From a virus (taxonomy: Duplodnaviria; Heunggongvirae; Uroviricota; Caudoviricetes), in the IMG/VR virus record IMGVR_UViG_3300045988_150439: DNA of 64,000 nucleotides; one strand, 5' to 3'. Positions 3,519-60,118 of this stretch are shown piece after piece (the stretch's first letter is position 1; the number at the start of each line of letters is the position of its first letter). The position numbers and the translations under genes were made by a program. The notes beneath the pieces are model-generated. The model had not been told where the DNA came from, searched no databases, and saw only the letters and a list, made by a program, of their open reading frames with translations.

Positions 3519-3836
3519 GTATTCCTCCTGATGGCCGTGATATAGGAAGGCCATCAATCTCCTCTGTTCAAACTGAGTTTTCGACTCAAAAATTACTTTA
3601 AAAGGCTATAGCCCATTACGTGTGCATTATCAAATTGTGTACGGCATATCACCGTACTTGTAATATAGAGGTCATTGTTACTTTTTTCAACAGGCAAATA
3701 CAAGCAATGATTGCCAATTGTTAACCACAACCTACCATTTTACCTTTACACCGCAGCCGTAGGCATTTAGGCTATATCACATATAAGAAAACAAGTTGTT
3801 TCAGACGATAATTATATACGCAAAGGGAACTCTCCA

Positions 3837-4505
3837 ATGACCAAGATCTTTGTGGTTGGCGGCACAAAGGGCGGGCCTGGCAAATCCACCGTTGCCCAGC
3901 AAATTGCCGTTTGCCTGAAAGTCAAAAAGAAGAAGAAGGTTTATATCACTGATATAGATATTCAGCGCACGACAACAAGCTGGTGTGAAGACCGTCGACA
4001 GAACGAAGATCTTGAGCTGATTCCTTTTGCATACGTTCAGGATGACATCATTAAGCACCTAAAATCGCTTCAGGGTAGAGCTGAGTTTGTAGTGGTAGAT
4101 GCTGGTGGCTTCGACTCCGAAATTCAGCGACAAGCGATGCTGATGGCTGACGTTATCATTATCCCGCTGCGTCCTAAGCGTCGTGATTTGAAATCTTTAC
4201 GTGACATCGATCCTATTATCGACAATGTTCGCAATGTAAACGATAAAGTGAAGGTCCGCGCGGTCATGAACCAGTGCCCGGCTTTGCCATCACAAGTGTC
4301 TCGCATTCTGGCGGCTAAAGAGATTGTTGAGACGTTTGGAATCGAGTCTGCGCCAGTCAATCTATATAACCGCAACGTCTATGATGATGCGGAAGAGTCT
4401 GGTCGTTCTATCTTTGAAATGACCGGTAGCGAGCGCGACAAAAAGGCGGAAGCCGAGTTTGAAGAATTTGTAGATTATCTGTTGAGTCTGGAGGAAGAAG
4501 AATAA
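3837..4505 (+). CDS. parA: ParA/Soj-type partition ATPase
   Basis: Deviant Walker A GGTKGGPGKST at N-terminus; 222 aa; stop overlaps start of downstream gene (TAATG). Confidence 0.8.
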   Translation: MTKIFVVGGTKGGPGKSTVAQQIAVCLKVKKKKKVYITDIDIQRTTTSWCEDRRQNEDLELIPFAYVQDDIIKHLKSLQGRAEFVVVDAGGFDSEIQRQAMLMADVIIIPLRPKRRDLKSLRDIDPIIDNVRNVNDKVKVRAVMNQCPALPSQVSRILAAKEIVETFGIESAPVNLYNRNVYDDAEESGRSIFEMTGSERDKKAEAEFEEFVDYLLSLEEEE

Positions 4506-4864
4506 TGTCCATGAAAATGGGTGACCTAGCAAAGCGCAAAGAGCCTGATGCACCGGCTAAGAACACAACTCCTTTGCGCCAACCAGTCAGACCACAGGGA
4601 CGCCCGACTCGTGGCAAAGAGAAAATTAAAAGCCGCACAATGTCACTGGAAGACGAATACTTCGAACTGCTGGAGATGATGAAGTTCATCCCTCGCTTCG
4701 AGAAGTTCACTCGTTCTGACGTGATTCGAGCAGCCATTTTCCATCTGGCAGAGAAGTCACCGCAGGAAATCGAGGACATCGTGAAGCTTAACGAGGCGAT
4801 CACAGCTGCCGACGTTACGATGCGTACCGATGAAATTAAACGAGAGTTGATGAAGAAAGGTTGA
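4505..4864 (+). CDS. small partition DNA-binding protein (ParG-like ribbon-helix-helix)
   Basis: 119 aa; basic N-terminus then RHH-like segment RTMSLEDEYFELLEMM...RSDVIRAAI; translationally coupled to parA. Confidence 0.5.
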   Translation: MSMKMGDLAKRKEPDAPAKNTTPLRQPVRPQGRPTRGKEKIKSRTMSLEDEYFELLEMMKFIPRFEKFTRSDVIRAAIFHLAEKSPQEIEDIVKLNEAITAADVTMRTDEIKRELMKKG

Positions 4865-7529: not shown

Positions 7530-7572
7530 CTAATACTAGAAAACAATTTGTTTAAAAAACAAAGGAAAGCAC

Positions 7573-8913
7573 ATGACCGAACTTTGCCATACAGGACGCG
7601 GGCTGTCCGAAGAGTTTGATGAAGATTTCCAGAACAGACTGACGGCATATTTTTGTCGTGATCACGAGTTTCTTACTCGTGCGGGAGATCTGGTTGTGCC
7701 TAGCCAATTTGCCAATGCGGCCAATGCCATATTGGTTAATATGGTTTCGGGCTATTACCGTATGTACAAGAGCGCGCCCTCTTCATCTGCAATTCTGGAT
7801 ATGCTTAAGCGTGCGAAACGCGATAAGACTATCCGTGAGGAACTATTCGCCGATGTTGTTGCTGCGTTTAAGCGCATCCTTGCAGAAAAATTGTCCGATA
7901 CCTCGTACATGGTTGACCAGGTATCAACCTTCGCAAAAAGCGTAGCGTTTGATGATGCTCTGATTAAGGCTGCTGAACTGAAAGAGAAGGGCGACTTTCA
8001 GGGGGCGATGGCAATCATGGCCAAGGTTCAGCAGATTGGATCGAACGAAGCGACCGGAATCTATGACTACTACACCTCAGCAAGTGAGCGACTGAAAGCG
8101 CGTGAATATGAGGCCTCAGAGGAGTATGTGCCAAACAGTATTACAACTGGACTCCCTCTTCTCGATAGGTTGCTGTACCAAAAAGGCTGGGCAAAGCGCG
8201 AAATGGTGCTCTTCATGGGGTTCGCTAAATCCGGTAAATCGACCGCAATGGGTGAGTTTTCCATAAACGCAACGCTTGCTGGCTACAATGTTCTGTATCT
8301 CTCGCTGGAGGTTCACACCACCATTTTATCCGACCGTTTTGACGCAAGATTGTCGGAGACAGAAATGTCCAAGCTGGTGGAACGGCGCGATGAGGTTCAT
8401 CGTAAGTTGGCAGAGTTGGGAGCCACGAAGGGGATTGGTAGTTTGTGGGTGGTTGAGCGTCCGTCAGGAAGTATATCACCGGCAGATCTGGATCGTATGC
8501 TCAACAGCATGAAAGCCAATGGCATGGTGCCTGACATGGTTGTTGTCGACTACGCAGATTTGATGCGTGCCAGTTATGACCTTCGTGATGATCGCGCCAA
8601 CATTCGTAGTATCTACACCGATTTGCGTGCTCTTTATGACAAGCATAACGTTGCTGGGATCACGGCATCGCAGACAAACCGTGAAGGTGGCGCGTCAGAA
8701 GTTGCCACAATGATGCACGCTGCCGACAACATCGAAAAAGTACGTATTGCTGACCTGGTAATAACGATCAACAAAACCGAAGAAGAAGAAGCGAAAGGAG
8801 AGGCTCGTCTCTACTTTGCTGGTTCACGTAACCAGCAGGGAGGGATCAGCATTCGCGTTAAACAAAACCTCGAACAAATGCGCTTCATTGAGCGAATCTT
8901 AGACGTTACCTAA
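7573..8913 (+). CDS. DnaB-like replicative DNA helicase
   Basis: 446 aa; Walker A GFAKSGKST mid-protein, Walker B-like DMVVVDYADL, ASQTNREG region; primase gene follows. Confidence 0.7.
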   Translation: MTELCHTGRGLSEEFDEDFQNRLTAYFCRDHEFLTRAGDLVVPSQFANAANAILVNMVSGYYRMYKSAPSSSAILDMLKRAKRDKTIREELFADVVAAFKRILAEKLSDTSYMVDQVSTFAKSVAFDDALIKAAELKEKGDFQGAMAIMAKVQQIGSNEATGIYDYYTSASERLKAREYEASEEYVPNSITTGLPLLDRLLYQKGWAKREMVLFMGFAKSGKSTAMGEFSINATLAGYNVLYLSLEVHTTILSDRFDARLSETEMSKLVERRDEVHRKLAELGATKGIGSLWVVERPSGSISPADLDRMLNSMKANGMVPDMVVVDYADLMRASYDLRDDRANIRSIYTDLRALYDKHNVAGITASQTNREGGASEVATMMHAADNIEKVRIADLVITINKTEEEEAKGEARLYFAGSRNQQGGISIRVKQNLEQMRFIERILDVT

Positions 8914-8994
8914 AAAATAAGCGTGGAGAACACCTCCACGCTTGATTCATTTGTGAAACAACTTTTCTTTTGCCAAACCACAAAAGAAAAACAC

Positions 8995-10173
8995 ATGAGC
9001 CTTTATGTTATATCAACATTTAGGTTGGTCACAATATTGCCTATTAAAAGTGGAATTATCGTGAGCGAGCTGAAAGAGCTAATTACCGAATTAGATTTTG
9101 AACAATGGTTGGACACTGAAGGTATCGTTTATCGACGTGGAGGCGTGAGTGCTCGCGGTCGTGAAGTGAATATCAAGGAGTGTCCGGTATGCGGCAGCTC
9201 CAACTGGAAGGTATATTTCAATCTGACCAGTGGTGTGGGTAAATGTTTCGCTGGCGACCATCCTGAAGAAATACAATTTAATAAGCTGGTGTTCCTCAAG
9301 CACTACAGCGGTAAATCACGGCGACAGTTCGAAGAATATGTGCAGAACGCCCTTCTTTCTCAGGGTTGGGCACCAAAGAAAGAAGAGATAGTGCTTGCAA
9401 GCACAGTCGAGTTAGAGGGGCCACTTGCACTCCCTCGTCATTACGAACTTCCTATAGATGGCCGTCTTCCAGACTATCTGGTTGAACGAAACATATCGCC
9501 TGAAATGGCAAAGTATTTTGACCTACGATACTGCGTCGAAGGTAAGCACGCCTATGTAGATCCGTATACAGATCAGGTTAAAGGACAGATATTCGATATG
9601 CGAATACTGATACCGGTTTACGATCTGGATGGGGTAATGAAGACATTTCAGGGACGAGACATTACCGGTACAGCAGAACGCCGCTACCTCTTTCCTATGC
9701 AGCTTCCAGCTTCAGGTAAATTTCTCTACAACGGCCATAATGCAGTCGGCAAACAGACTGTAGTTGTCTGTGAGGGTGCGTTCGATGTTATGGGGGTCAA
9801 ACGAGCTATTTTCGACGAAGAAACATTACGTGATTACGTGGAGCCAATAGGAACGTTCGGGATGCATCTATCTGGCAACACCACTCAGGATGCAGAAGAT
9901 CAGTTGGGCGCGTTCCTGACGCTCAAAGCGCGTGGATTACGTAATGTGATCATGATGTGGGATAGTGAAAAGCAAGCTATACGTAATACGATGGCCGCAG
10001 CCAGGCGACTGACCAGTATTGGTCTTAATGTCAAAGTGGCGTGTTTGGGCGAGGAAGGACTCGACCCGGGCGATGCAACGCCAGAGCAAATCATCAAAGC
10101 CTATTATCGGGCAAAACCGTATACCAAGCAGTTGGAGTTACAAAGCAAGGTTTTGGGCATTAAGGCTCTATGA
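8995..10173 (+). CDS. DNA primase (zinc ribbon + TOPRIM)
   Basis: ORF 8923..10173; probable ATG 8995 in conserved aaaaacacATG context. Zinc ribbon CPVCGSS..GKC, TOPRIM-like VVVCEGAFDVMG. Confidence 0.7.
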   Translation: MSLYVISTFRLVTILPIKSGIIVSELKELITELDFEQWLDTEGIVYRRGGVSARGREVNIKECPVCGSSNWKVYFNLTSGVGKCFAGDHPEEIQFNKLVFLKHYSGKSRRQFEEYVQNALLSQGWAPKKEEIVLASTVELEGPLALPRHYELPIDGRLPDYLVERNISPEMAKYFDLRYCVEGKHAYVDPYTDQVKGQIFDMRILIPVYDLDGVMKTFQGRDITGTAERRYLFPMQLPASGKFLYNGHNAVGKQTVVVCEGAFDVMGVKRAIFDEETLRDYVEPIGTFGMHLSGNTTQDAEDQLGAFLTLKARGLRNVIMMWDSEKQAIRNTMAAARRLTSIGLNVKVACLGEEGLDPGDATPEQIIKAYYRAKPYTKQLELQSKVLGIKAL

Positions 10174-12885: not shown

Positions 12886-13061
12886 TGCTCGGCTGGATGA
12901 TTGCATTTTTAGCAGTTGGTTTTTTCATCGGTATTGTGGTGATGTCCAGTTGCATTAATGACTACATTAAAAACGGTGTTATAGAAAGACGCGGTCGCAT
13001 TTATCGCATTGTAGAAATAACCAACACCGTGAAGGAGATTAAGGATGATCGTATTAAGTAA
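12882..13061 (+). CDS. small membrane protein (59 aa), paralog A
   Basis: Below ORF-track cutoff; ATG overlaps ligase stop (ATGA). One TM helix then GRRGRIYRIVEITNT tail. Confidence 0.4.
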   Translation: MMLGWMIAFLAVGFFIGIVVMSSCINDYIKNGVIERRGRIYRIVEITNTVKEIKDDRIK

Positions 13062-13260
13062 ACGGGAGAAGGAAACGCTTCATGAAATCAGTAAGTGGCC
13101 GGAGTTCCCTGAGTACTGGAAGCCTAAAACGCGAGCTAAGTTAGAGCGTTTAGGGTTGGTTGCAAACGTTTCTGAAACGTGGTGTTCGGCCAACTACCAG
13201 TTAACTGATAAAGGGAAAGTATTGCTACAGCAATTAGTAGAATCAGGAGCGTTAAAATGA
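13045..13260 (+). CDS. hypothetical protein (71 aa)
   Basis: ORF in track; part of a translationally coupled gene chain. Confidence 0.45.
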   Translation: MIVLSKREKETLHEISKWPEFPEYWKPKTRAKLERLGLVANVSETWCSANYQLTDKGKVLLQQLVESGALK

Positions 13261-14474: not shown

Positions 14475-14549
14475 GATGGTGTAGCTCAGCGGTAGAGCAG
14501 TTGGCTGTTAACCAACTGGTCGGTGGTTCGAATCCACCCACCATCGCCA
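14475..14549 (+). tRNA. tRNA-Asn (anticodon GTT)
   Basis: Cloverleaf by eye: acceptor gatggtg/caccatc, D-arm gctc..gagc, anticodon stem gttgg/ccaac loop ctGTTaa, T-arm ggtgg-ttcgaat-ccacc, encoded CCA. Confidence 0.85.
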
Positions 14550-14551
14550 AT

Positions 14552-14627
14552 GCCGGTTTAGCTCAGTTGGTAGAGCACCTGCCTTGTAAGCAGGATGTCA
14601 GCGGTTCGATCCCGTTAACCGGCACCA
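14552..14627 (+). tRNA. tRNA-Thr (anticodon TGT)
   Basis: Acceptor gccggtt/aaccggc, anticodon stem cctgc/gcagg loop ctTGTaa, T-loop ttcgatc, encoded CCA. Confidence 0.85.
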
Positions 14628-15212: not shown

Positions 15213-16424
15213 TCAAAAAAGTTTTATAAATTCATAATTCTGGTCAATTAAGGATTCAATACACACCATGCAAAAATCTACATCGTTAAAATCAGGTGTG
15301 TAATATTCATCCTCATAACATTCATTTAGACCTTCAATCAATTTTTCTTTAAAAACTCCCCACGTTTCAATATGAACCATTTCCATATAAGGCGCATGTG
15401 TATGTACTTGCAATACATCCCAGGTGTCTATAACCTCGATCCGCGGCTTGCAATTAATTTTTTCTAAATATGCCCTCCCAGAATTGTAAATTTTCGACAT
15501 TGATGCCCCAAAACCTGATGGTTGGTAATGAGTGTAAATGTCATAAATTTTTTGTCCTATTCTAGGGAGTTGAGAAGCATTGGATATTTGTGGCGAATGA
15601 AAGTATCGCTCTATGGAAGAAAACGCAGAAACATTAACTAGAGTAATCGTATATGGTGCTAAAGTTCTCTCGTTCAAATTTCTACATAAAATAGCAAACC
15701 CATGGCTATTAGTCTTTTCACCGTCTGAGGACATTTTTGCCATGCTGGCTTTAATAACATTCAATTTCGAATGTAAACGAGAAGTGGAAGTCGGTTGATT
15801 ATACATTTCATCATCATACAAACATATATGAAACCCGCCAAGATGACGAAATGAGAACTTGAGTGCTTCTTCCGCAATAACTAATTTATTAATATCTAAA
15901 GGAGTAAGTGATACGTTACCTTGTAAATCATAGCAAGGTTCTAAACATAGAAAGTTTTTCTTCTGCCACACAATCATATTAAAAATAAAGTGTCTAACCA
16001 AAGGTGGCCAGTCAGGTGATATAAGTACATTGGTAATATCTCCATCAGACAAGTATGACAAGTAACTTTTTAGTTCCGCAGCATATGCCACTAGCTCAGT
16101 TCCAGCTTCCCTTGTTGGTGTTGAAAAATTTTTTAACTCAATAAGAACTAAGGATTCATTCTCTGTTGAATAAGCAACGACATCAGGTCTTAATATCTCA
16201 GATTTTGTTGCTGAGATATTTTCATCATCTGTCATTAAATGTAACAATGTTATATTCTTTAAACAAAACTGATAACTCTCCTTAATTTTTTTCTCTTCGG
16301 GTCTTTTCGGATTAAATTCATTTAATTTATCAATATTGATGATTGAATTATATAATCCATCTTGATCAGATAATTTGTCAATTATCCAATTTTGCATTTC
16401 CTTTTCGCTTAAAAATATTGACAC
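15213..16424 (-). CDS. 403-aa protein with PD-(D/E)xK-like nuclease motif; distal gene of AT-rich two-gene cassette (AbiGii position)
   Basis: GTG start; PDVVAY...SLVLIELK resembles a D..ExK restriction-endonuclease-fold motif; very AT-rich; 26 nt from upstream gene. Confidence 0.45.
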   Translation of the reverse strand: MSIFLSEKEMQNWIIDKLSDQDGLYNSIINIDKLNEFNPKRPEEKKIKESYQFCLKNITLLHLMTDDENISATKSEILRPDVVAYSTENESLVLIELKNFSTPTREAGTELVAYAAELKSYLSYLSDGDITNVLISPDWPPLVRHFIFNMIVWQKKNFLCLEPCYDLQGNVSLTPLDINKLVIAEEALKFSFRHLGGFHICLYDDEMYNQPTSTSRLHSKLNVIKASMAKMSSDGEKTNSHGFAILCRNLNERTLAPYTITLVNVSAFSSIERYFHSPQISNASQLPRIGQKIYDIYTHYQPSGFGASMSKIYNSGRAYLEKINCKPRIEVIDTWDVLQVHTHAPYMEMVHIETWGVFKEKLIEGLNECYEDEYYTPDFNDVDFCMVCIESLIDQNYEFIKLF

Positions 16425-16450
16425 TAATTAGGCTCCCGTTAAACCAAAAA

Positions 16451-17272
16451 TTAAAAATCTTGCTTTACTTTATCCATAGTCAGAATTTTGCTAATAATTG
16501 AAGATTCAAATCCATCTAAACCTGAGAGAAAGTTAATTAGCTTTTGGATATGTTGTTCTTTAGGTATAAGTATATATTTTATATCATTGAACTCAAAATC
16601 AATGCCAAACTTTGAAAATTTTGAGCTAATTTTTGCTTTGTCATCAGAAGTGATAACACGCTCCAAACTCAGACTAGGCCATAAATCACCAATAAAAGGA
16701 GCTGGCACATAACGCCACTCTTTCTCGTCTGCATATATATAATTCTCTATTGTTTTATTATCTTTTCGCTCTAGCTTGCCTCTGTAATTTTTCATATAAC
16801 GCAGTAAATTATATAGATCAGAATATTCTGCTTTCAATTTCTCAAACTCTATTCTGTTTTTGGTATCTAAATTTCCTCTAGCCTTCCAAAGCGGCACCAA
16901 CTTTTTTTTAATAAGTCGAATTCTGGCATTGTATTTAGAAAATATTTCACTGCTCTTATTCATATATAGAACTGGGTGTAGACCTTTCTTTTCCGCCCAA
17001 GACTTAGTTAGCCCAAGACCGAATTCCCCATATTTTCCGCTATGATCTCTGATTTGTGATAGTTTTATGTCACAAAACGATACCATTGGTACTGCAAACC
17101 TCCTGCGTCCCCCGACTCCTCTTATTTCCTCGCGAGCAAGAAATGGTTTAAAATATTTCTCAGCCAATATGCTATAGAAAGCATCTTCGTTTTTTGTAAA
17201 ATGAAACAACGTGGTTGGATGAAGACTATAAACAGATTCAACATTCGCATCAGGATTTTCAAGGATAGTCAT
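16451..17272 (-). CDS. AbiGi-like protein (candidate abortive-infection component)
   Basis: ORF 16451..17317; probable ATG 17272 follows AAGGTG. N-terminal LFHFTKNEDAFYSIL...PMVSFCDIKL...YGEFGLGL pattern resembles what I recall of AbiGi proteins; AT-rich. Confidence 0.4.
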   Translation of the reverse strand: MTILENPDANVESVYSLHPTTLFHFTKNEDAFYSILAEKYFKPFLAREEIRGVGGRRRFAVPMVSFCDIKLSQIRDHSGKYGEFGLGLTKSWAEKKGLHPVLYMNKSSEIFSKYNARIRLIKKKLVPLWKARGNLDTKNRIEFEKLKAEYSDLYNLLRYMKNYRGKLERKDNKTIENYIYADEKEWRYVPAPFIGDLWPSLSLERVITSDDKAKISSKFSKFGIDFEFNDIKYILIPKEQHIQKLINFLSGLDGFESSIISKILTMDKVKQDF

Positions 17273-17561
17273 TTTACACCTTGTGGAAAGCCAGTTTAGT
17301 TCTGTAAATAGTATCACACGACAGGCGGCTATTCTTCTATCAATAAAGGATAGGTAAGCACTTACTTTTTACGCGCGTTAATTGTATAGTTCTTTCGGAT
17401 ACTCACTTGAAAGGACTCAATATGGGAAATAAATGTAAACATGCGCGTCGCGCATCTCGTCAGGTGCAGAAGTCAAATCCATACATTCACGAGCACTACC
17501 ACCTCAGCTCTTTCACTAACCGCTACACGTTCCCCAGCGAAGCGCATAACGAGGCAAGGCA

Positions 17562-19104: not shown

Positions 19105-20208
19105 ATGAAAAATAGCTTTGACAGAGCACGCGCAGCGGAGAACACCTCAAAAGAGGCGATTGAGTATCTCGAAAGAGCATCTCAAATGCAGGCCGTTATG
19201 ATCTCGCAGGTTAGCAATGACATGAGATTCTCAGACGCATTCATGTTATTCACTCGCTTATCTCTGCTAATAACAAGACGTCGGCCAGAGATCGCTGTTC
19301 ACTGTATTTTGATACATGTTTTGCCGCACATTGCTGATGTAAAAGTAAGTGACATTAATAGGTTCATGGTGAACCAACTGGTCAACCCACTAATACTGGA
19401 TGGCAAAATTGTTATGGGCCGCCGCGTTTTCTCTCTGATGAAGCAGTTCCTTAGCTGGTGCGCCTTCCAGGGGATGATAGACGTGTCACCGTTAAACGAT
19501 ATGTCACTTAACAAAGTTGCCGGTGGCGCAAAGCCCACACCTCGCGAGCGGAAGCTGACCGACGCAGAGGTATGGGTGTTCTGGAATATATGGGACTACT
19601 TCAATGTGTGTGCTGGTACAAAATGGGCGGCAAGGCTATGTCTTGTATCCGCAAGACGACCTGATGAAGTACTGCGGGCTAAAAAAAGTGAGTTCAATCT
19701 TAAGCGTGGGGTTTGGAATCAAGGCAAAAGAAACAAGTCAGCACGTGAGCATTCGCTGCCTTTAAGCACATTAATGCGCACATGCATTGAAGAGTTGTTC
19801 GAATACGGTAAAGATAGCCAGTGGCTCGTTCCTTCGAATAAAAAAATCGGGAAAGACCTTCCTATGTCTAAAGTGGCAATAGCCCAGGCATTACGTCGTA
19901 TTCTGGAACGACCAGAACTGATGGAGCTTGAGCCATTTACACCCCGAGATTTGCGCCGTACTGCGCGTAGTTACTTCCCAGCATTAGGCATAAGCCAGGA
20001 GGTATCACGTAAAATCATGAACCACAGTCTTGAGGGGATAGATCGGGTCTACGACCGGCACGATTATATGGACGAGATGCGAGACGCCTTAGAAAGTTTC
20101 TCGACGTACATCGCATCAATCGTAGAGCAACCGGATTTAGACGAAATTGACCACAAATTTAAGGGAGATCGTCTATCAACAGAGCTTATTCGTGTAAATT
20201 TTTCATAG
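19105..20208 (+). CDS. tyrosine site-specific recombinase
   Basis: 367 aa; C-terminal catalytic region with RDLRRTARS, HSLEG, and Tyr motif VYDRHDY. Confidence 0.7.
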   Translation: MKNSFDRARAAENTSKEAIEYLERASQMQAVMISQVSNDMRFSDAFMLFTRLSLLITRRRPEIAVHCILIHVLPHIADVKVSDINRFMVNQLVNPLILDGKIVMGRRVFSLMKQFLSWCAFQGMIDVSPLNDMSLNKVAGGAKPTPRERKLTDAEVWVFWNIWDYFNVCAGTKWAARLCLVSARRPDEVLRAKKSEFNLKRGVWNQGKRNKSAREHSLPLSTLMRTCIEELFEYGKDSQWLVPSNKKIGKDLPMSKVAIAQALRRILERPELMELEPFTPRDLRRTARSYFPALGISQEVSRKIMNHSLEGIDRVYDRHDYMDEMRDALESFSTYIASIVEQPDLDEIDHKFKGDRLSTELIRVNFS

Positions 20209-20589
20209 AGACTTTATGGCCTCAACAACCTTTTGTGATGCGCCTTTCTCTTTACCGAATCGCTCGTTATATGCAGCAAGAACCTGTTTTTCGTCCTCGT
20301 TAAGAGGAGCAGTGCCTTCTTTGTATAAAAATGCTGCGAGTTCGGGTTGACGTTCTTCCAGCACCATCATCATAAGACGACTTGGCTCAATACCCAGTGC
20401 CAGCGCCAGCGGACGAACCTTATCGATAGGCAAAGGAATTTTGCCGCTTTTAATTAAAGAAAGGTTGTTGGCGTTTTTATACCCAATTGTTTTGGCTATC
20501 TGGGCCTGGCTCATAGGTGAGGATTCAATCAACCCTGCGATAAAAGCAGCGTAGCGACTTTCTATAAATTCAATCTTGTTATCAGACAT
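20203..20589 (-). CDS. helix-turn-helix DNA-binding regulator (XRE-like)
   Basis: 128 aa; HTH segment MSQAQIAKTIGYKNANNLSLIKSG; convergent with recombinase gene. Confidence 0.6.
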   Translation of the reverse strand: MSDNKIEFIESRYAAFIAGLIESSPMSQAQIAKTIGYKNANNLSLIKSGKIPLPIDKVRPLALALGIEPSRLMMMVLEERQPELAAFLYKEGTAPLNEDEKQVLAAYNERFGKEKGASQKVVEAIKSL

Positions 20590-21053: not shown

Positions 21054-21151
21054 CCCCTCTTCTCCCTGCGCGAATGGCTTAGTTCCCTGTTCGCGCAGTG
21101 CTACATTAAACAAACTAGTAAATAATTTGTTTTCATAACAAAGGATTAGCC

Positions 21152-28322: not shown

Positions 28323-28593
28323 AGAATTATGGCGCTTGTTGAGGAAGTCACTCCTCTTACGCACTTTGTTTTGCCATGCCGGCAGTTAGCTTCTGCCTTT
28401 GACTATTCATGCGGCAACCCCGCATTTCGCCACAATGGGCAATTCACTTTTATGGAATAAACTGGCCGTTGTGTCGATTTAATTAGCATGGCCTTACCAT
28501 GCTAATTTATTCAACTTGTAAAATCCTACAAATCTATCCACTCAGGCTTACACCGTCTTCGTTATTGTAGAAATGAGGATCATCAGCGTTGAA

Positions 28594-28809
28594 TCAGCTT
28601 AGAGCAACGACATTTGCTGCTGCTGGGCCTTTAGCCCCATTCTCGATAGAGAATTCGACCTGCTGGCCTTCTTCCAAAGTGCGGAAATTATTACTCTGAA
28701 TTGCCGAAAAATGTACAAAAACATCTTTACTGCCATCAGCAGGAGAAATAAAGCCAAAGCCTTTATCAGAGTTAAACCATTTTACTAAACCAGTCATTTT
28801 ATTAGACAT
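28594..28809 (-). CDS. cold-shock protein (CspA family)
   Basis: ORF 28594..28905; probable ATG 28809 follows AAGGTAG. About 71 aa with RNP1 KGFGFI and RNP2-like VFVHF. Confidence 0.8.
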
Positions 28810-29138
28810 AGATACTACCTTCTTAATTTTGTGAGCCACATAGTGCGGCGAGAATTTGATCTGTATAGATTGGGACTTACTTAGGCACTTAAGGAGGAGA
28901 CTCACGAAGAAGGGAAATCAGAAGATAACACTGAACTGAGACTGCTTTACTAAAACTGCTTACATAAGGTCTGTCTTGCAAACCAACGATGCTATTAACG
29001 CATACCCCTTCTTTTCATGCAACCTTTATTTTTCAAAGATAACTAATTTTTGTCACCATTGGTTTAGTAAACGTTAACGAACCAGACGATGCCAGACACC
29101 TTTACAGAGAACAGATGCCCGCCAATTGGCGGGCATCA

Positions 29139-36576: not shown

Positions 36577-36603
36577 AGGCGTCCAGTTGGACGCCTTTTT
36601 TAT
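36577..36603 (+). terminator. rho-independent terminator
   Basis: aggcgtcc-agtt-ggacgcct followed by ttttttat; same stem as 35438 terminator. Confidence 0.65.
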
Positions 36604-36651
36604 CGCAATTATCTTATTAAGAAAATAATTTGTTTAAAAGGATAAGAAAAC

Positions 36652-48290: not shown

Positions 48291-48390
48291 CATATGGTGG
48301 GGTATATCCCCACCTTATCTTTGATTTGTAAGCCTTGTTTAAACACATAAGATAACAACTTGTTTAAACACATCAAAAAAGGAAAAACAC

Positions 48391-59302: not shown

Positions 59303-59395
59303 CGGTTGTTAGTGCATATGCATTGACCGTCTTTTCGTAAGCAATTCATGTAACTAGAAAACAACTTGTTTTAACAAATAATAAAAGGAAAGCAC

Positions 59396-59981: not shown

Positions 59982-60010
59982 ACAAGGGCCAAATGGCCCT
60001 TGTGTTTCGT
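59982..60010 (+). terminator. rho-independent terminator
   Basis: acaagggcc-aaat-ggcccttgt followed by gtttcgtt. Confidence 0.6.
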
Positions 60011-60118
60011 TGACCGAAATAGAGAGTTTGCACCTTTACGTTTAGCTTGCTCCCCTTTTATGCCACATCACAATAAAGCCAATAAGAAAACAACTTGTTT
60101 AAGCATTAGGAAAAACAC

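What the first reader, a model, noticed from the sequence alone, without database searches (positions are those of the whole stretch)
7539..7575. Second upstream motif AAACAA-n-TTGTTTAA and a conserved initiation context AAAGGAAAAACAC-ATG
A short palindrome (gaaaacaaNttgtttaa) lies 15-35 nt upstream of the start codons of parA (about 3787), helicase (7539), the CobT-like gene (21122), 36652 (36625), nrdB (48345-48375, two copies), 59396 (59355) and 60119 (60085). Many genes share an unusually uniform ribosome-binding context ending in aaaacacATG (7573, 8995, 23356, 24772, 30791, 35526, 37133, 41358, 48391, 59396, 60119, 63493). This suggests coordinated translational or late-promoter control.
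Basis: seen in the sequence. Interest (0 to 1): 0.5.

Follow-up and report, generated by a model that had tools for sequence, protein, structure and literature searches.

The report
Shared operator of phage-plasmid early genes
The short palindrome is a real, strongly conserved 16-base control element that heads about twenty early, replication and partition operons in SSU5-type phage-plasmids (roughly 800 plasmids of E. coli, Salmonella, Klebsiella and Yersinia carry the linked marker gene), and it is most likely the binding site of an unidentified plasmid-encoded repressor.

Summary
The window is an E. coli SSU5-like phage-plasmid, 97% identical to phage Cyrano. AAACAANTTGTTT occurs 7 times (0.6 expected), always as AGAAAACAA-N-TTGTTT, on the coding strand, 16-35 nt before a start codon. 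Relatives carry 18-20 copies per genome at orthologous positions. Motif identity is 90%, against 55-60% for the flanks.

The sequence is conserved, not the pairing. There are 0 compensatory changes in 78 sites, and the RNA hairpin is unstable. In the clearest cassettes the order is: terminator, inverted copy at about -38, TGnGATAAT extended -10, element at about +14, AAGGA, ATG. Centre-to-centre spacing is exactly 51 bp in 8 cassettes. Published lysogen RNA-seq shows the downstream genes at background.

Best reading (confidence 0.5): a DNA operator for a symmetric repressor that is not identified.

Main rival (0.3): an RNA operator for a family-specific FljA-like protein. That protein models as tandem Sm/Hfq barrels. 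Both it and the motif are missing from a syntenic Moellerella relative. The Salmonella fliC leader, FljA's known target, shares CAAGUUGU plus AAGGAAAA-N4-AUG.

The uniform start-codon context AAAGGAAAAACAC-ATG is real (10 hits, 1.1 expected) but separate: only 4 of 12 such starts have the palindrome. No description was found in the searchable literature.

The parts
3786..3801 (+). Element AGAAAACAAGTTGTTT upstream of parA (ATG 3837); a -10-like TATATC lies at 3773-3778
   Evidence: Identical in SSU5 and Klebsiella pJN2-26.
7538..7553 (+). Element AGAAAACAATTTGTTT upstream of the DnaB-like helicase (ATG 7573). This is the site given in the finding.
   Evidence: The orthologous sites in SSU5 and pJN2-26 keep 14-15 of 16 bases, while the 30 nt upstream keep only 11-13 of 30.
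21117..21132 (+). Variant AGTAAATAATTTGTTT upstream of the CobT-like gene (ATG 21152); a -10-like TACATT lies 10 nt upstream
36620..36635 (+). Element AGAAAATAATTTGTTT upstream of ORF 36652, directly after a terminator-like hairpin at 36577-36596 followed by TTTTTT
48350..48365 (+). Variant AGATAACAACTTGTTT upstream of nrdB (ATG 48391). The T at position 4 of the element is kept in all three genomes compared.
48335..48346 (+). Direct repeat of the right half plus flank (TTGTTTAAACAC).
59356..59371 (+). Element AGAAAACAACTTGTTT upstream of the TciA-like gene (ATG 59396), after the hairpin at 59308-59327
60085..60100 (+). Element AGAAAACAACTTGTTT upstream of ORF 60119, after the hairpin at 59982-60003; a -10-like CAATAA lies at 60071-60076
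8956..8974 (+). Degenerate inverted-type copy (AAACAACTT-TTCTTTTGCC) after a hairpin, upstream of the primase start at 8995
   Evidence: Recognised by similarity to the class B consensus AAACAANTTGTTTTCTGCC.
7557..7575 (+). Uniform translation-initiation region of the helicase gene (acaaaGGAaagCAC-ATG). The same context is found at starts 8995, 23356, 24772, 30791, 35526, 37133, 41358, 48391, 59396, 60119 and 63493.
3837..4864 (+). parA (3837-4505) and the adjacent 119-aa gene (4505-4864). This is the one element-headed operon that is expressed in the lysogen. The 119-aa protein is a weak candidate binder.
   Evidence: The fold was not confirmed.
13045..13260 (+). 71-aa protein (CYRAN_37 homologue) with weak winged-helix hits. 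It is one of ten genes that share the motif's presence/absence pattern across relatives.

Best explanation
The palindrome is the core of a 16-bp element, AGAAAACAA-N-TTGTTT. This element is the common operator of an early-gene regulon in SSU5-family phage-plasmids.

It sits at the head of separately terminated transcription units. The order is: terminator hairpin; in some cassettes an inverted copy centred near -38; a sigma-70 promoter of the extended -10 type (TGnGATAAT, no real -35); the element centred near +14; an AAGGA Shine-Dalgarno; ATG.

I infer that a sequence-specific, two-fold symmetric DNA-binding protein encoded by the element binds it. Where two copies flank the promoter 51 bp apart, binding would be cooperative. 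Bound protein would block initiation and read-through. This would keep the partition, helicase/primase, CobT-CobS-PolIII, nrdB, small early and packaging operons near background while the element lives as a plasmid. The protein is not identified.

Shown: the element exists, is enriched, keeps one orientation, is conserved as a footprint, has fixed spacing, shows no covariation, and its downstream transcripts are low in a lysogen.

Inferred: the transcription start sites, protein binding, and repression.

The uniform AAAGGAAAAACAC-ATG context is a separate feature. It is a family-typical strong initiation region shared by early genes with or without the palindrome.
For: 1. Enrichment: 7 sites against 0.6 expected.
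2. Family-wide presence: 18-20 copies per genome in Cyrano, SSU5 and Klebsiella pJN2-26. It is also present in a Nissabacter-type contig and in the divergent Klebsiella plasmid NZ_AP024176.
3. Footprint: 90% identity in the element against 60% and 55% in the flanks at orthologous sites.
4. Both arms are nearly invariant. There are 0 compensatory pairs in 78 distinct sites. There are 46 perfect palindromes and 0 pair-preserving double variants in 423 kb. This is what symmetric reading of duplex DNA predicts.
5. The logo of 34 gene-proximal sites shows a -10-like GATAAT, often TGnGATAAT, ending 10 nt before AGA.
6. Inverted copies lie exactly 51 bp upstream (centre to centre) in 8 cassettes from 4 genomes, with the -10 between them. 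Their distance to the upstream hairpin varies.
7. Terminator-like hairpins directly precede the sites, so each unit needs its own promoter.
8. In the LF82 (Cyrano) lysogen, genes just downstream of the element are at background. Values are TerS 7, cobT 8, CYRAN_58 6, nrdB 13, CYRAN_85 7, CYRAN_87 7, CYRAN_101 7, CYRAN_110 7, against a median of 9.8. The parA operon is the exception at 50-89 (PMC9928086 S1 table).
Against: - No DNA-binding protein could be tied to the element.
- The only annotated regulator that shares its presence/absence pattern is the FljA-like protein. That protein models as tandem Sm/Hfq barrels with no helix-turn-helix.
- The AGA flank makes the site asymmetric.
- In NZ_AP024176 several cassettes keep only AGAAAACAA at the gene-proximal position.
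- In the window itself the -10-like hexamers are weak. A two-hexamer sigma-70 scan does not call promoters there.
- At the helicase site the only conserved TAnnAT sits 1 nt from AGA.
- No transcription start data were available.
- Background RNA levels could also follow from translation block plus mRNA decay.
Confidence: 0.5

Rival explanations
1. RNA operator. The element, possibly together with the uniform AAGGAAAAACAC-AUG region, is read in the 5' leader of the mRNAs by the family-specific FljA-like tandem-Sm protein (CYRAN_114 / SSU5_121, encoded outside the window). This protein would block ribosome binding and destabilise the mRNAs, as Salmonella FljA does on fliC mRNA.
For: - The protein matches Pfam Flag1_repress (FljA) at E 1e-80.
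- The gene is in all 12 SSU5-like phage records and in no other of 50,697 phage records.
- It is in 831 plasmids, including those of non-motile Klebsiella and Y. pestis. Its job is therefore unlikely to be flagellin control.
- It is expressed in the lysogen at log2 7-8 in four of the five conditions; in overnight LB its normalised count is 18, about twice the background median of 9.8.
- The syntenic Moellerella plasmid lacks the gene, the motif and the uniform context together.
- FljA family members are described as translational repressors of fliC mRNA (PMC2652032).
- The Salmonella/Citrobacter fliC leader is the only one of 1245 ORF starts in 105 enterobacterial loci that has both CAANTTGT and AGGAAAA at the matching positions.
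- The element lies 16-35 nt before start codons and is predicted to begin at about +5 of the mRNA.
- AGAAAACAA alone is kept in some cassettes.
Against: - Strict conservation of both complementary arms, with no compensatory or wobble pattern. This has no obvious meaning for single-stranded RNA.
- The hairpin energy is -0.3 to -0.7 kcal/mol, no better than shuffles.
- Inverted copies sit upstream of the -10, at a fixed distance from it. They are therefore outside the rightward mRNA.
- The motif is unchanged where the FljA-like protein has diverged to 36% identity.
- A full-length matrix match of the fliC leader to the motif is not significant. The two blocks used were trimmed after seeing the leader.
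- The co-absence is a single contrast, and nine other genes share it.
Confidence: 0.3
2. Special case of the DNA model. The binder is the 119-aa protein encoded right after parA (window 4505-4864). It would act both as the partition adaptor and as a global repressor, in the manner of KorB of RK2 or omega of pSM19035 (comparison from my own knowledge).
For: - The element lies between the -10-like hexamer and the SD of parA, the classical place for autoregulation in small-ParA operons.
- The operon is the only element-headed unit expressed in the lysogen.
- The protein is 92-98% identical across E. coli, Salmonella and Klebsiella and is found in 797 plasmids.
- In NZ_AP024176 it is 49% identical overall. 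Two segments stay identical there (RPQGRPTRGK..IKSRTMS and FTRSDVIRAAI), and the motif is also unchanged.
Against: - The Moellerella plasmid keeps ParA and a 45% homologue but has no motif-2 regulon.
- pMT1 lacks the operon yet keeps four sites, although it is too close to SSU5 to weigh much.
- parA has only one palindrome upstream, not a repeat array.
Confidence: 0.1
3. There is no dedicated regulator. The element would be an intrinsic part of a repeated promoter/leader cassette: an A/T-rich UP-like or initial-transcribed sequence, a translation enhancer, or a host-factor site. It would have spread by duplication.
For: - The cassettes resemble each other beyond the palindrome (GCCTTTT..TGnGATAATAAcaCCAAcA-AGA).
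- The A-rich leader and the uniform AAGGA context suggest selection for expression.
- No binder was found.
Against: - Flanks have diverged to 55-60% while the element stays at 90%.
- Both arms are conserved base by base, including the single C and G.
- The same element is kept in an inverted copy on the other side of the promoter.
- The promoters are silent in the lysogen despite good extended -10 elements.
- A host-factor site was not tested against host genomes.
Confidence: 0.08
4. Structural element: a terminator, an RNase III or other processing hairpin, or a cruciform.
For: - The sequence is an inverted repeat.
- Inverted copies often lie next to GC-rich hairpins.
Against: - The stem is A-U rich and unstable.
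- There is no covariation, and mismatches break pairing.
- The central base of paired copies does not co-vary.
- The element lies after terminators and before genes, not at gene ends.
Confidence: 0.02

Closest known systems
C1 repressor operators of phage-plasmid P1 (own knowledge)
   Same: One short operator sequence is scattered at many promoters around a roughly 100-kb plasmid prophage. The targets include replication functions (P1 ban helicase; here a DnaB-like helicase). The sites overlap or follow the -10.
   Different: P1 operators are 17-bp asymmetric sites of unrelated sequence, and the binder C1 is known. Here the site is a 13-bp dyad with an AGA flank, and the binder is unknown.
Stoperators of mycobacteriophages L5 and Bxb1 (own knowledge)
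   Same: About 20-30 copies of a 13-bp site lie in short intergenic gaps and are oriented with transcription. A bound repressor can stop read-through as well as initiation.
   Different: Stoperators are asymmetric and single. Here the core is symmetric, and some copies are inverted at a fixed 51 bp across a promoter.
KorB (RK2) and omega (pSM19035) global plasmid regulators (own knowledge)
   Same: A palindromic or repeated site is present at the partition operon and at many other operons of the same replicon. The partition operon stays expressed.
   Different: The candidate partner protein (window 4505-4864) has no demonstrable ParB or ribbon-helix-helix fold. A relative keeps that protein without the regulon.
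FljA-fliC translational repression in Salmonella (PMC2652032 for the mechanism; details own knowledge)
   Same: A homologous protein family is encoded by every element that has the motif. In fliC the target lies in the 5' leader just before an AAGGAAAA Shine-Dalgarno, and the leader shares CAAGUUGU.
   Different: FljA has one target. Here there would be about twenty. The phage element is a full dyad that also occurs outside the predicted mRNAs. Identity to true FljA is about 40%.
T4 RegA translational repression of early mRNAs (own knowledge)
   Same: This phage-plasmid encodes many T4-like replication and nucleotide-metabolism genes, and many of them share a similar initiation region. That makes a common translational repressor conceivable for the AAAGGAAAAACAC-AUG half of the finding.
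   Different: No RegA homologue was sought or seen. The shared context may simply be a strong ribosome-binding site.

Membership tests
Dyad-symmetric repressor operator on DNA | Two-fold sequence symmetry with both half-sites conserved as sequence | tested here: met
   AAACAA and TTGTTT are each 66-74 of 74 conserved. There are 0 compensatory variants.
Dyad-symmetric repressor operator on DNA | Overlaps or abuts the core promoter or transcription start | tested here: inconclusive
   A -10-like GATAAT or TGnGATAAT ends 10 nt before AGA in the 34-site logo. No start-site data exist, and the hexamers at the window's own sites are weak.
Dyad-symmetric repressor operator on DNA | A cognate DNA-binding protein binds the site | not testable with these tools
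   No candidate with a confirmed DNA-binding fold was found.
Dyad-symmetric repressor operator on DNA | Target genes are repressed when the regulator is present | tested here: met
   Downstream genes are at background in the LF82 lysogen, except the parA operon. This is correlative only.
RNA hairpin or translational operator | A stable or covarying secondary structure | tested here: not met
   Minimum free energy is -0.3 to -0.7 kcal/mol with z about +0.7. No pair changes on both sides.
RNA hairpin or translational operator | Lies within the 5' leader close to the Shine-Dalgarno | tested here: met
   The element lies 16-35 nt before the ATG, at a predicted +5 to +20.
RNA hairpin or translational operator | Copies are confined to transcribed leaders | tested here: not met
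   Inverted copies are centred about 38 nt upstream of the predicted start, at a fixed 51 bp from the leader copy.
RNA hairpin or translational operator | A cognate RNA-binding protein is encoded by the element | tested here: met
   The FljA-like protein has a tandem Sm/Hfq fold. It co-occurs with the motif and is co-absent with it. Binding itself was not tested.
Sigma-70 extended -10 promoter | TG one base upstream of a TAnnnT-like hexamer, with a weak or absent -35 | tested here: met
   TGAGATAAT, TGCGATAAT and TGGTATTAT are seen in right-arm cassettes of Cyrano, SSU5, pJN2-26 and NZ_AP024176. This is less clear at the seven window sites.
Sigma-70 extended -10 promoter | Initiation 6-8 nt downstream of the hexamer | not testable with these tools
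   No 5'-end data are available.
L5-type stoperator | Asymmetric site, a single orientation relative to transcription, many intergenic copies | tested here: inconclusive
   Gene-proximal copies all have AGA on the 5' side and are intergenic. However the core is symmetric, and 11 or more copies are inverted.
Small-ParA partition centromere / global regulator site | Site upstream of parA, plus a small centromere-binding protein gene after parA | tested here: inconclusive
   The site and the gene order are present. The fold is not confirmed. There is a single palindrome, not an array. The Moellerella relative has the proteins but no regulon.
Intrinsic terminator | GC-rich stem followed by a U tract | tested here: not met
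   The element has one G-C pair. Terminator-like hairpins are separate structures upstream of it.
Shine-Dalgarno initiation region (second half of the finding) | AGGA/AAGGA 6-9 nt before an ORF start | tested here: met
   This holds at 12 of 12 claimed starts. It is enriched and also present in NZ_AP024176. It is absent in the Moellerella plasmid.

The most novel reading that the evidence does not exclude
The regulator is the FljA-like tandem-Sm (Hfq-fold) protein. It would bind the AGAAAACAA-N-UUGUUU / AAGGAAAAACAC-AUG leaders of about twenty operons and act as a post-transcriptional master switch for the early regulon of a whole phage-plasmid family. On this reading, Salmonella's flagellar phase-variation repressor FljA is a domesticated copy, and its fliC target mimics the phage leader.
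Probability: 0.3. Interest if true: 0.8.

Novelty: new member of a known kind. Interest (0 to 1): 0.55.

Why it matters
SSU5/pHCM2/pMT1-type phage-plasmids are common in clinical E. coli, Salmonella, Klebsiella, Enterobacter and Y. pestis. Their marker genes are found in about 800 plasmid records. A review of phage-plasmids discusses how other phage-plasmids are regulated but gives nothing for SSU5.

A single conserved 16-bp element at the head of the replication, nucleotide-metabolism, partition and packaging operons gives three things:
- a map of the early regulon;
- a handle for finding the regulator by pull-down or reporter fusions;
- a way to correct gene starts in existing annotations.

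If the binder proves to be the FljA-like Sm-fold protein, it would link a textbook bacterial switch (flagellar phase variation) to a phage regulatory system.

Tried and rejected
- A matrix built from the seven window sites found no weaker extra copies.
- Literature searches for SSU5 or pHCM2 operators, for the motif itself, and for FljA in phages found nothing relevant. A heteroresistance preprint concerns a different phage-plasmid family. The two primary FljA papers are not held.
- A full-length matrix match of flagellin leaders to the motif was not significant.
- The pMT1 test was uninformative. It lacks that protein and keeps four sites, but it is nearly identical to SSU5 at those sites.
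- The HTH repressor at 20203-20589 was rejected as the binder. Its own divergent control region carries a different palindrome and no motif-2 site.
- The ParB_N proteins were rejected because they are silent in the lysogen.
- PHROGs and Pfam scans of other small proteins were uninformative.
- The IMG/VR scan gave mostly SSU5-size contigs plus single chance hits, and was not pursued.
- Rfam has no family at the sites.
- A two-hexamer sigma-70 scan does not call promoters at the window sites.
- The chromosomal homologue P0074 lies among many short genes with no flagellin gene annotated nearby, apparently a degraded integrated copy, so it gave no useful comparison.
- Comparison with host-factor consensus sites recalled from memory (IHF, KdgR, PhoP, LacI family) showed no convincing match. 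This was not tested computationally.
Full report
**What the window is.** Megablast places the window in an E. coli SSU5-like phage-plasmid. It is 97% identical to Escherichia phage Cyrano (pLF82) and to CMS-2020a, and about 80% identical to Salmonella phage SSU5. I fetched the annotated genomes of several relatives as comparators:
- SSU5, Cyrano and Klebsiella pJN2-26;
- a Nissabacter-type contig;
- the divergent Klebsiella plasmid NZ_AP024176;
- Y. pestis pMT1;
- a Moellerella wisconsensis plasmid.

- Every copy is on the coding strand with the flank A-Y-W-AGA, so the unit is the 16-mer AGAAAACAA-N-TTGTTT.
- Each copy ends 16-35 nt before the ATG of a real ORF.
- The second nrdB 'copy' is only a repeated right half.
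- The initiation context is also real: AAACACATG gives 10 against 0.9 expected, and AAAGGAAAAACACATG with up to 3 mismatches gives 10 against 1.1.
- All 12 claimed starts open ORFs, but only 4 of them have the palindrome nearby. Others follow a different palindrome or none.

**It is a family-wide footprint.**
- SSU5 has about 20 copies, Cyrano about 18 and pJN2-26 about 18. They lie at orthologous places: TerS, parA, helicase, cobT, nrdB, the TciA-like gene, and a dense cluster of small right-arm genes.
- Anchored on the element, the window matches SSU5 and pJN2-26 at 90% of element positions. The match is 60% in the 30 nt upstream and 55% in the 15 nt downstream.
- The same 16-mer is kept in the Nissabacter-type contig and in NZ_AP024176.

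**Anatomy.** Aligning 34 gene-proximal copies (class A) gives the consensus Cctttt.....ttg...tAaTtAcaCcaAta-AGAAAACAA.TTGTTT-Aa.
- A -10-like GATAAT or TATTAT, often preceded by TGn, ends 10 nt before AGA.
- This predicts a start a few bases before AGA, with the dyad centre near +14.
- Eleven or more copies are inverted (class B): AAACAANTTGTTTTCT followed by GCCTTTT..TGnGATAAT.
- Where both classes occur together, the centres are exactly 51 bp apart in 8 cassettes from four genomes. Four tandem pairs are 25 bp apart.
- Class B copies keep this fixed distance to the -10. Their distance to the preceding GC hairpin varies from 2 to about 16 nt, and sometimes there is no hairpin. They therefore belong to the promoter, not to the terminator.
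- Terminator-like hairpins directly precede the window sites at 36620, 59356 and 60085.
- The simple two-hexamer scan does not call promoters there. This fits promoters without a -35, but the -10-like hexamers at the window's own sites are weak. The promoter inference is strongest for the right-arm cassettes that lie outside the window.

**Sequence, not structure.**
- Across 74 sites, the single C and G and all the A/T positions of both arms are 66-74 of 74 conserved.
- In 78 distinct sites no pair changes on both sides, and deviations simply break pairing. Because that set was chosen with up to 1 mismatch, I ran a separate search.
- That search looked for all 18 pair-preserving double variants and found none in 423 kb, against 46 perfect palindromes.
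- The RNA hairpin is worth -0.3 to -0.7 kcal/mol, no better than shuffles.
- The AGA flank has no mirror image on the other side.

**State in a lysogen.** The supplementary RNA-seq table of the LF82 study (PMC9928086) gives normalised counts, with a Cyrano median of 9.8.
- Genes directly after class A copies read: TerS 7, helicase 21, cobT 8, CYRAN_58 6, nrdB 13, CYRAN_85 7, CYRAN_87 7, CYRAN_101 7, CYRAN_105 13, CYRAN_106 12, CYRAN_110 7, CYRAN_111 26.
- The parA operon is the exception at 50-89.
- The same paper reports that ciprofloxacin induces Cyrano 39-fold.
- These units are therefore essentially silent in the plasmid state, despite reasonable extended -10 elements.

**Who binds it?** No candidate could be fixed.

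*(a) The HTH repressor at 20203-20589.*
- This is CYRAN_45, which the LF82 authors call the putative repressor.
- Its own divergent control region carries a different, very abundant palindrome (about TAGGTAAGTACTTACCTA).
- That region has no copy of the present element.

*(b) The 119-aa protein after parA (4505-4864).*
- Points in favour:
  - It is unusually conserved, 92-98%.
  - Its operon is expressed in the lysogen.
  - In NZ_AP024176 two of its segments stay identical while the rest diverges.
- Points against:
  - Its fold could not be established.
  - The Moellerella plasmid keeps ParA and a 45% homologue without the regulon.

*(c) The FljA-like gene, encoded by every SSU5-like record.*
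- It matches Pfam PF03614 at E 1e-80.
- Among phages it is found in 12 of 12 SSU5-like records and in no other of 50,697.
- Among plasmids it is in 831 records, including those of non-motile Klebsiella and Y. pestis.
- FljA proteins are described as blocking fliC mRNA translation (PMC2652032).
- The syntenic Moellerella plasmid lacks this gene, the element (3 one-mismatch hits, none before a gene) and the uniform initiation context all together.
- However, nine other Cyrano genes share that presence/absence pattern. None has a clear DNA-binding domain.

**The fliC lead.**
- The Salmonella/Citrobacter fliC leader reads ...aacatCAAGTTGTaattgatAAGGAAAAgatcATG.
- A full-length matrix match to the element is not significant.
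- It is nevertheless the only one of 1245 ORF starts in 105 enterobacterial loci with both CAANTTGT at -60..-10 and AGGAAAA at -18..-3. Background rates are 2 of 1239 and 14 of 1239.
- I trimmed the two blocks after seeing the leader, so this is a lead and not a test.

**Weighing.**
- A symmetric, base-by-base conserved dyad, the promoter-flanking inverted copies at a fixed 51 bp, and silent transcripts are what a DNA operator predicts. I put this at 0.5.
- The co-occurrence with an RNA-binding FljA homologue, the leader position, the retention of AGAAAACAA alone in some cassettes and the fliC resemblance keep an RNA-level mechanism alive. I put this at 0.3.
- The two could also coexist.
- The parA-adjacent protein as a KorB/omega-like global regulator gets 0.1. 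An intrinsic cassette element or host-factor site gets 0.08. A purely structural role gets 0.02.

**Comparison with known systems (my own knowledge).** In layout the regulon resembles the scattered C1 operators of P1, the stoperators of L5 and Bxb1, and the KorB or omega regulons of plasmids. It is not a member of any of these by sequence. I found no description of it in the searchable literature. I file it as a new member of a known kind: a multi-copy operator regulon. There is a 0.3 chance that it is something less ordinary.

**The uniform initiation context.**
- It is a conserved strong Shine-Dalgarno region (AAGGA, an A-rich spacer, CAC, ATG).
- It is shared by key replication genes: helicase, primase, CobS, PolIII alpha, gp32-like SSB, SbcD and nrdB.
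- It is also found in NZ_AP024176, at about 12 of 32 starts.
- It is absent from the Moellerella plasmid.
- Whether it is only an efficient ribosome site or also a target for a translational repressor cannot be decided here.

Noticed in passing
window 1188, 6758, 13704, 17351, 20619, 23275, 30688, 35475, 37428, 41227, 45911, 50617, 56238, 58453, 63432 (start positions): A second, more abundant palindrome, about (GA)TAGGTAAGTACTTACCTA(TC), lies in intergenic gaps. My loose patterns (3-5 mismatches allowed) gave 23 hits in the window and 32-38 per relative genome; an unknown share of these are chance matches. Some copies precede structural genes, and one lies in the divergent control region of the HTH repressor at 20203-20589. 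SSU5 keeps the sites but lacks the repressor gene.
   Followed up: partly
window 4505-4864 (+): The gene after parA is annotated in Cyrano as a RelE/ParE toxin. It has no Pfam match, is 92-98% identical across genera, and occurs in 797 plasmids. By position it is more likely the partition adaptor protein.
   Followed up: partly
Cyrano 100780-101301 (L006:780-1301, - strand), outside the window: The FljA-like 'transcriptional regulator' models as tandem Sm/Hfq-like barrels. It is conserved in phage-plasmids of non-motile hosts, so flagellin is unlikely to be its target there.
   Followed up: partly
Cyrano 85797-85817 (L005 35797-35817); SSU5 87603-87625 (L002 37603-37625): The GC hairpins next to these two inverted copies score as terminators for the minus strand, since the T-rich tail is on that side. 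A third such hairpin, at SSU5 85580-85603, scores on the plus strand, so the picture is mixed. The minus-strand reading of the inverted copy is AGAAAACAA.TTGTTTAAGG plus the hairpin. This could be a short leftward RNA that starts in the cassette. It remains unexplained.
   Followed up: partly
window 8995; Cyrano 95805, 97226 and 97903: Several annotated starts in Cyrano look misplaced. The primase is annotated at a GTG, although an ATG with the uniform context lies upstream. The starts of CYRAN_105, CYRAN_108 and CYRAN_110 fall inside the element or the -10 hexamer.
   Followed up: no
window 28569-28987 (-): A full-length match to the cspA thermoregulator (Rfam RF01766, 184 bits). This indicates a cold-shock protein gene with its RNA thermosensor on the phage-plasmid.
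   Followed up: no
window 14475-14624 (+): Two tRNA genes. This stretch is about 86% identical to the tRNA-Asn/Thr region of phage-plasmids P1, P7 and D6.
   Followed up: no
window about 15213-17317 (-): Two minus-strand ORFs (403 and 288 aa) lie in a low-GC stretch of 37%. Coordinate offsets of shared anchor sites (window centres against Cyrano positions) show that the window holds about 2.5 kb more than Cyrano here. This is probably an accessory insertion.
   Followed up: no
Cyrano 94611, SSU5 90746, pJN2-26 25875, L116 18897-18922 (all outside the window): A minus-oriented copy of the element is followed by a conserved stretch, aacgcaaYgggagcg.ttttgagc. No gene is annotated there in SSU5 or pJN2-26 (Cyrano annotates a TTG-start hypothetical across the site). 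It may be a small gene or RNA.
   Followed up: no
SSU5 about 93690 (L002): A perfect DnaA-box sequence, TTATCCACA, lies between the inverted copy and the -10 of one cassette. Cyrano has TTATCTACA at the same place.
   Followed up: no
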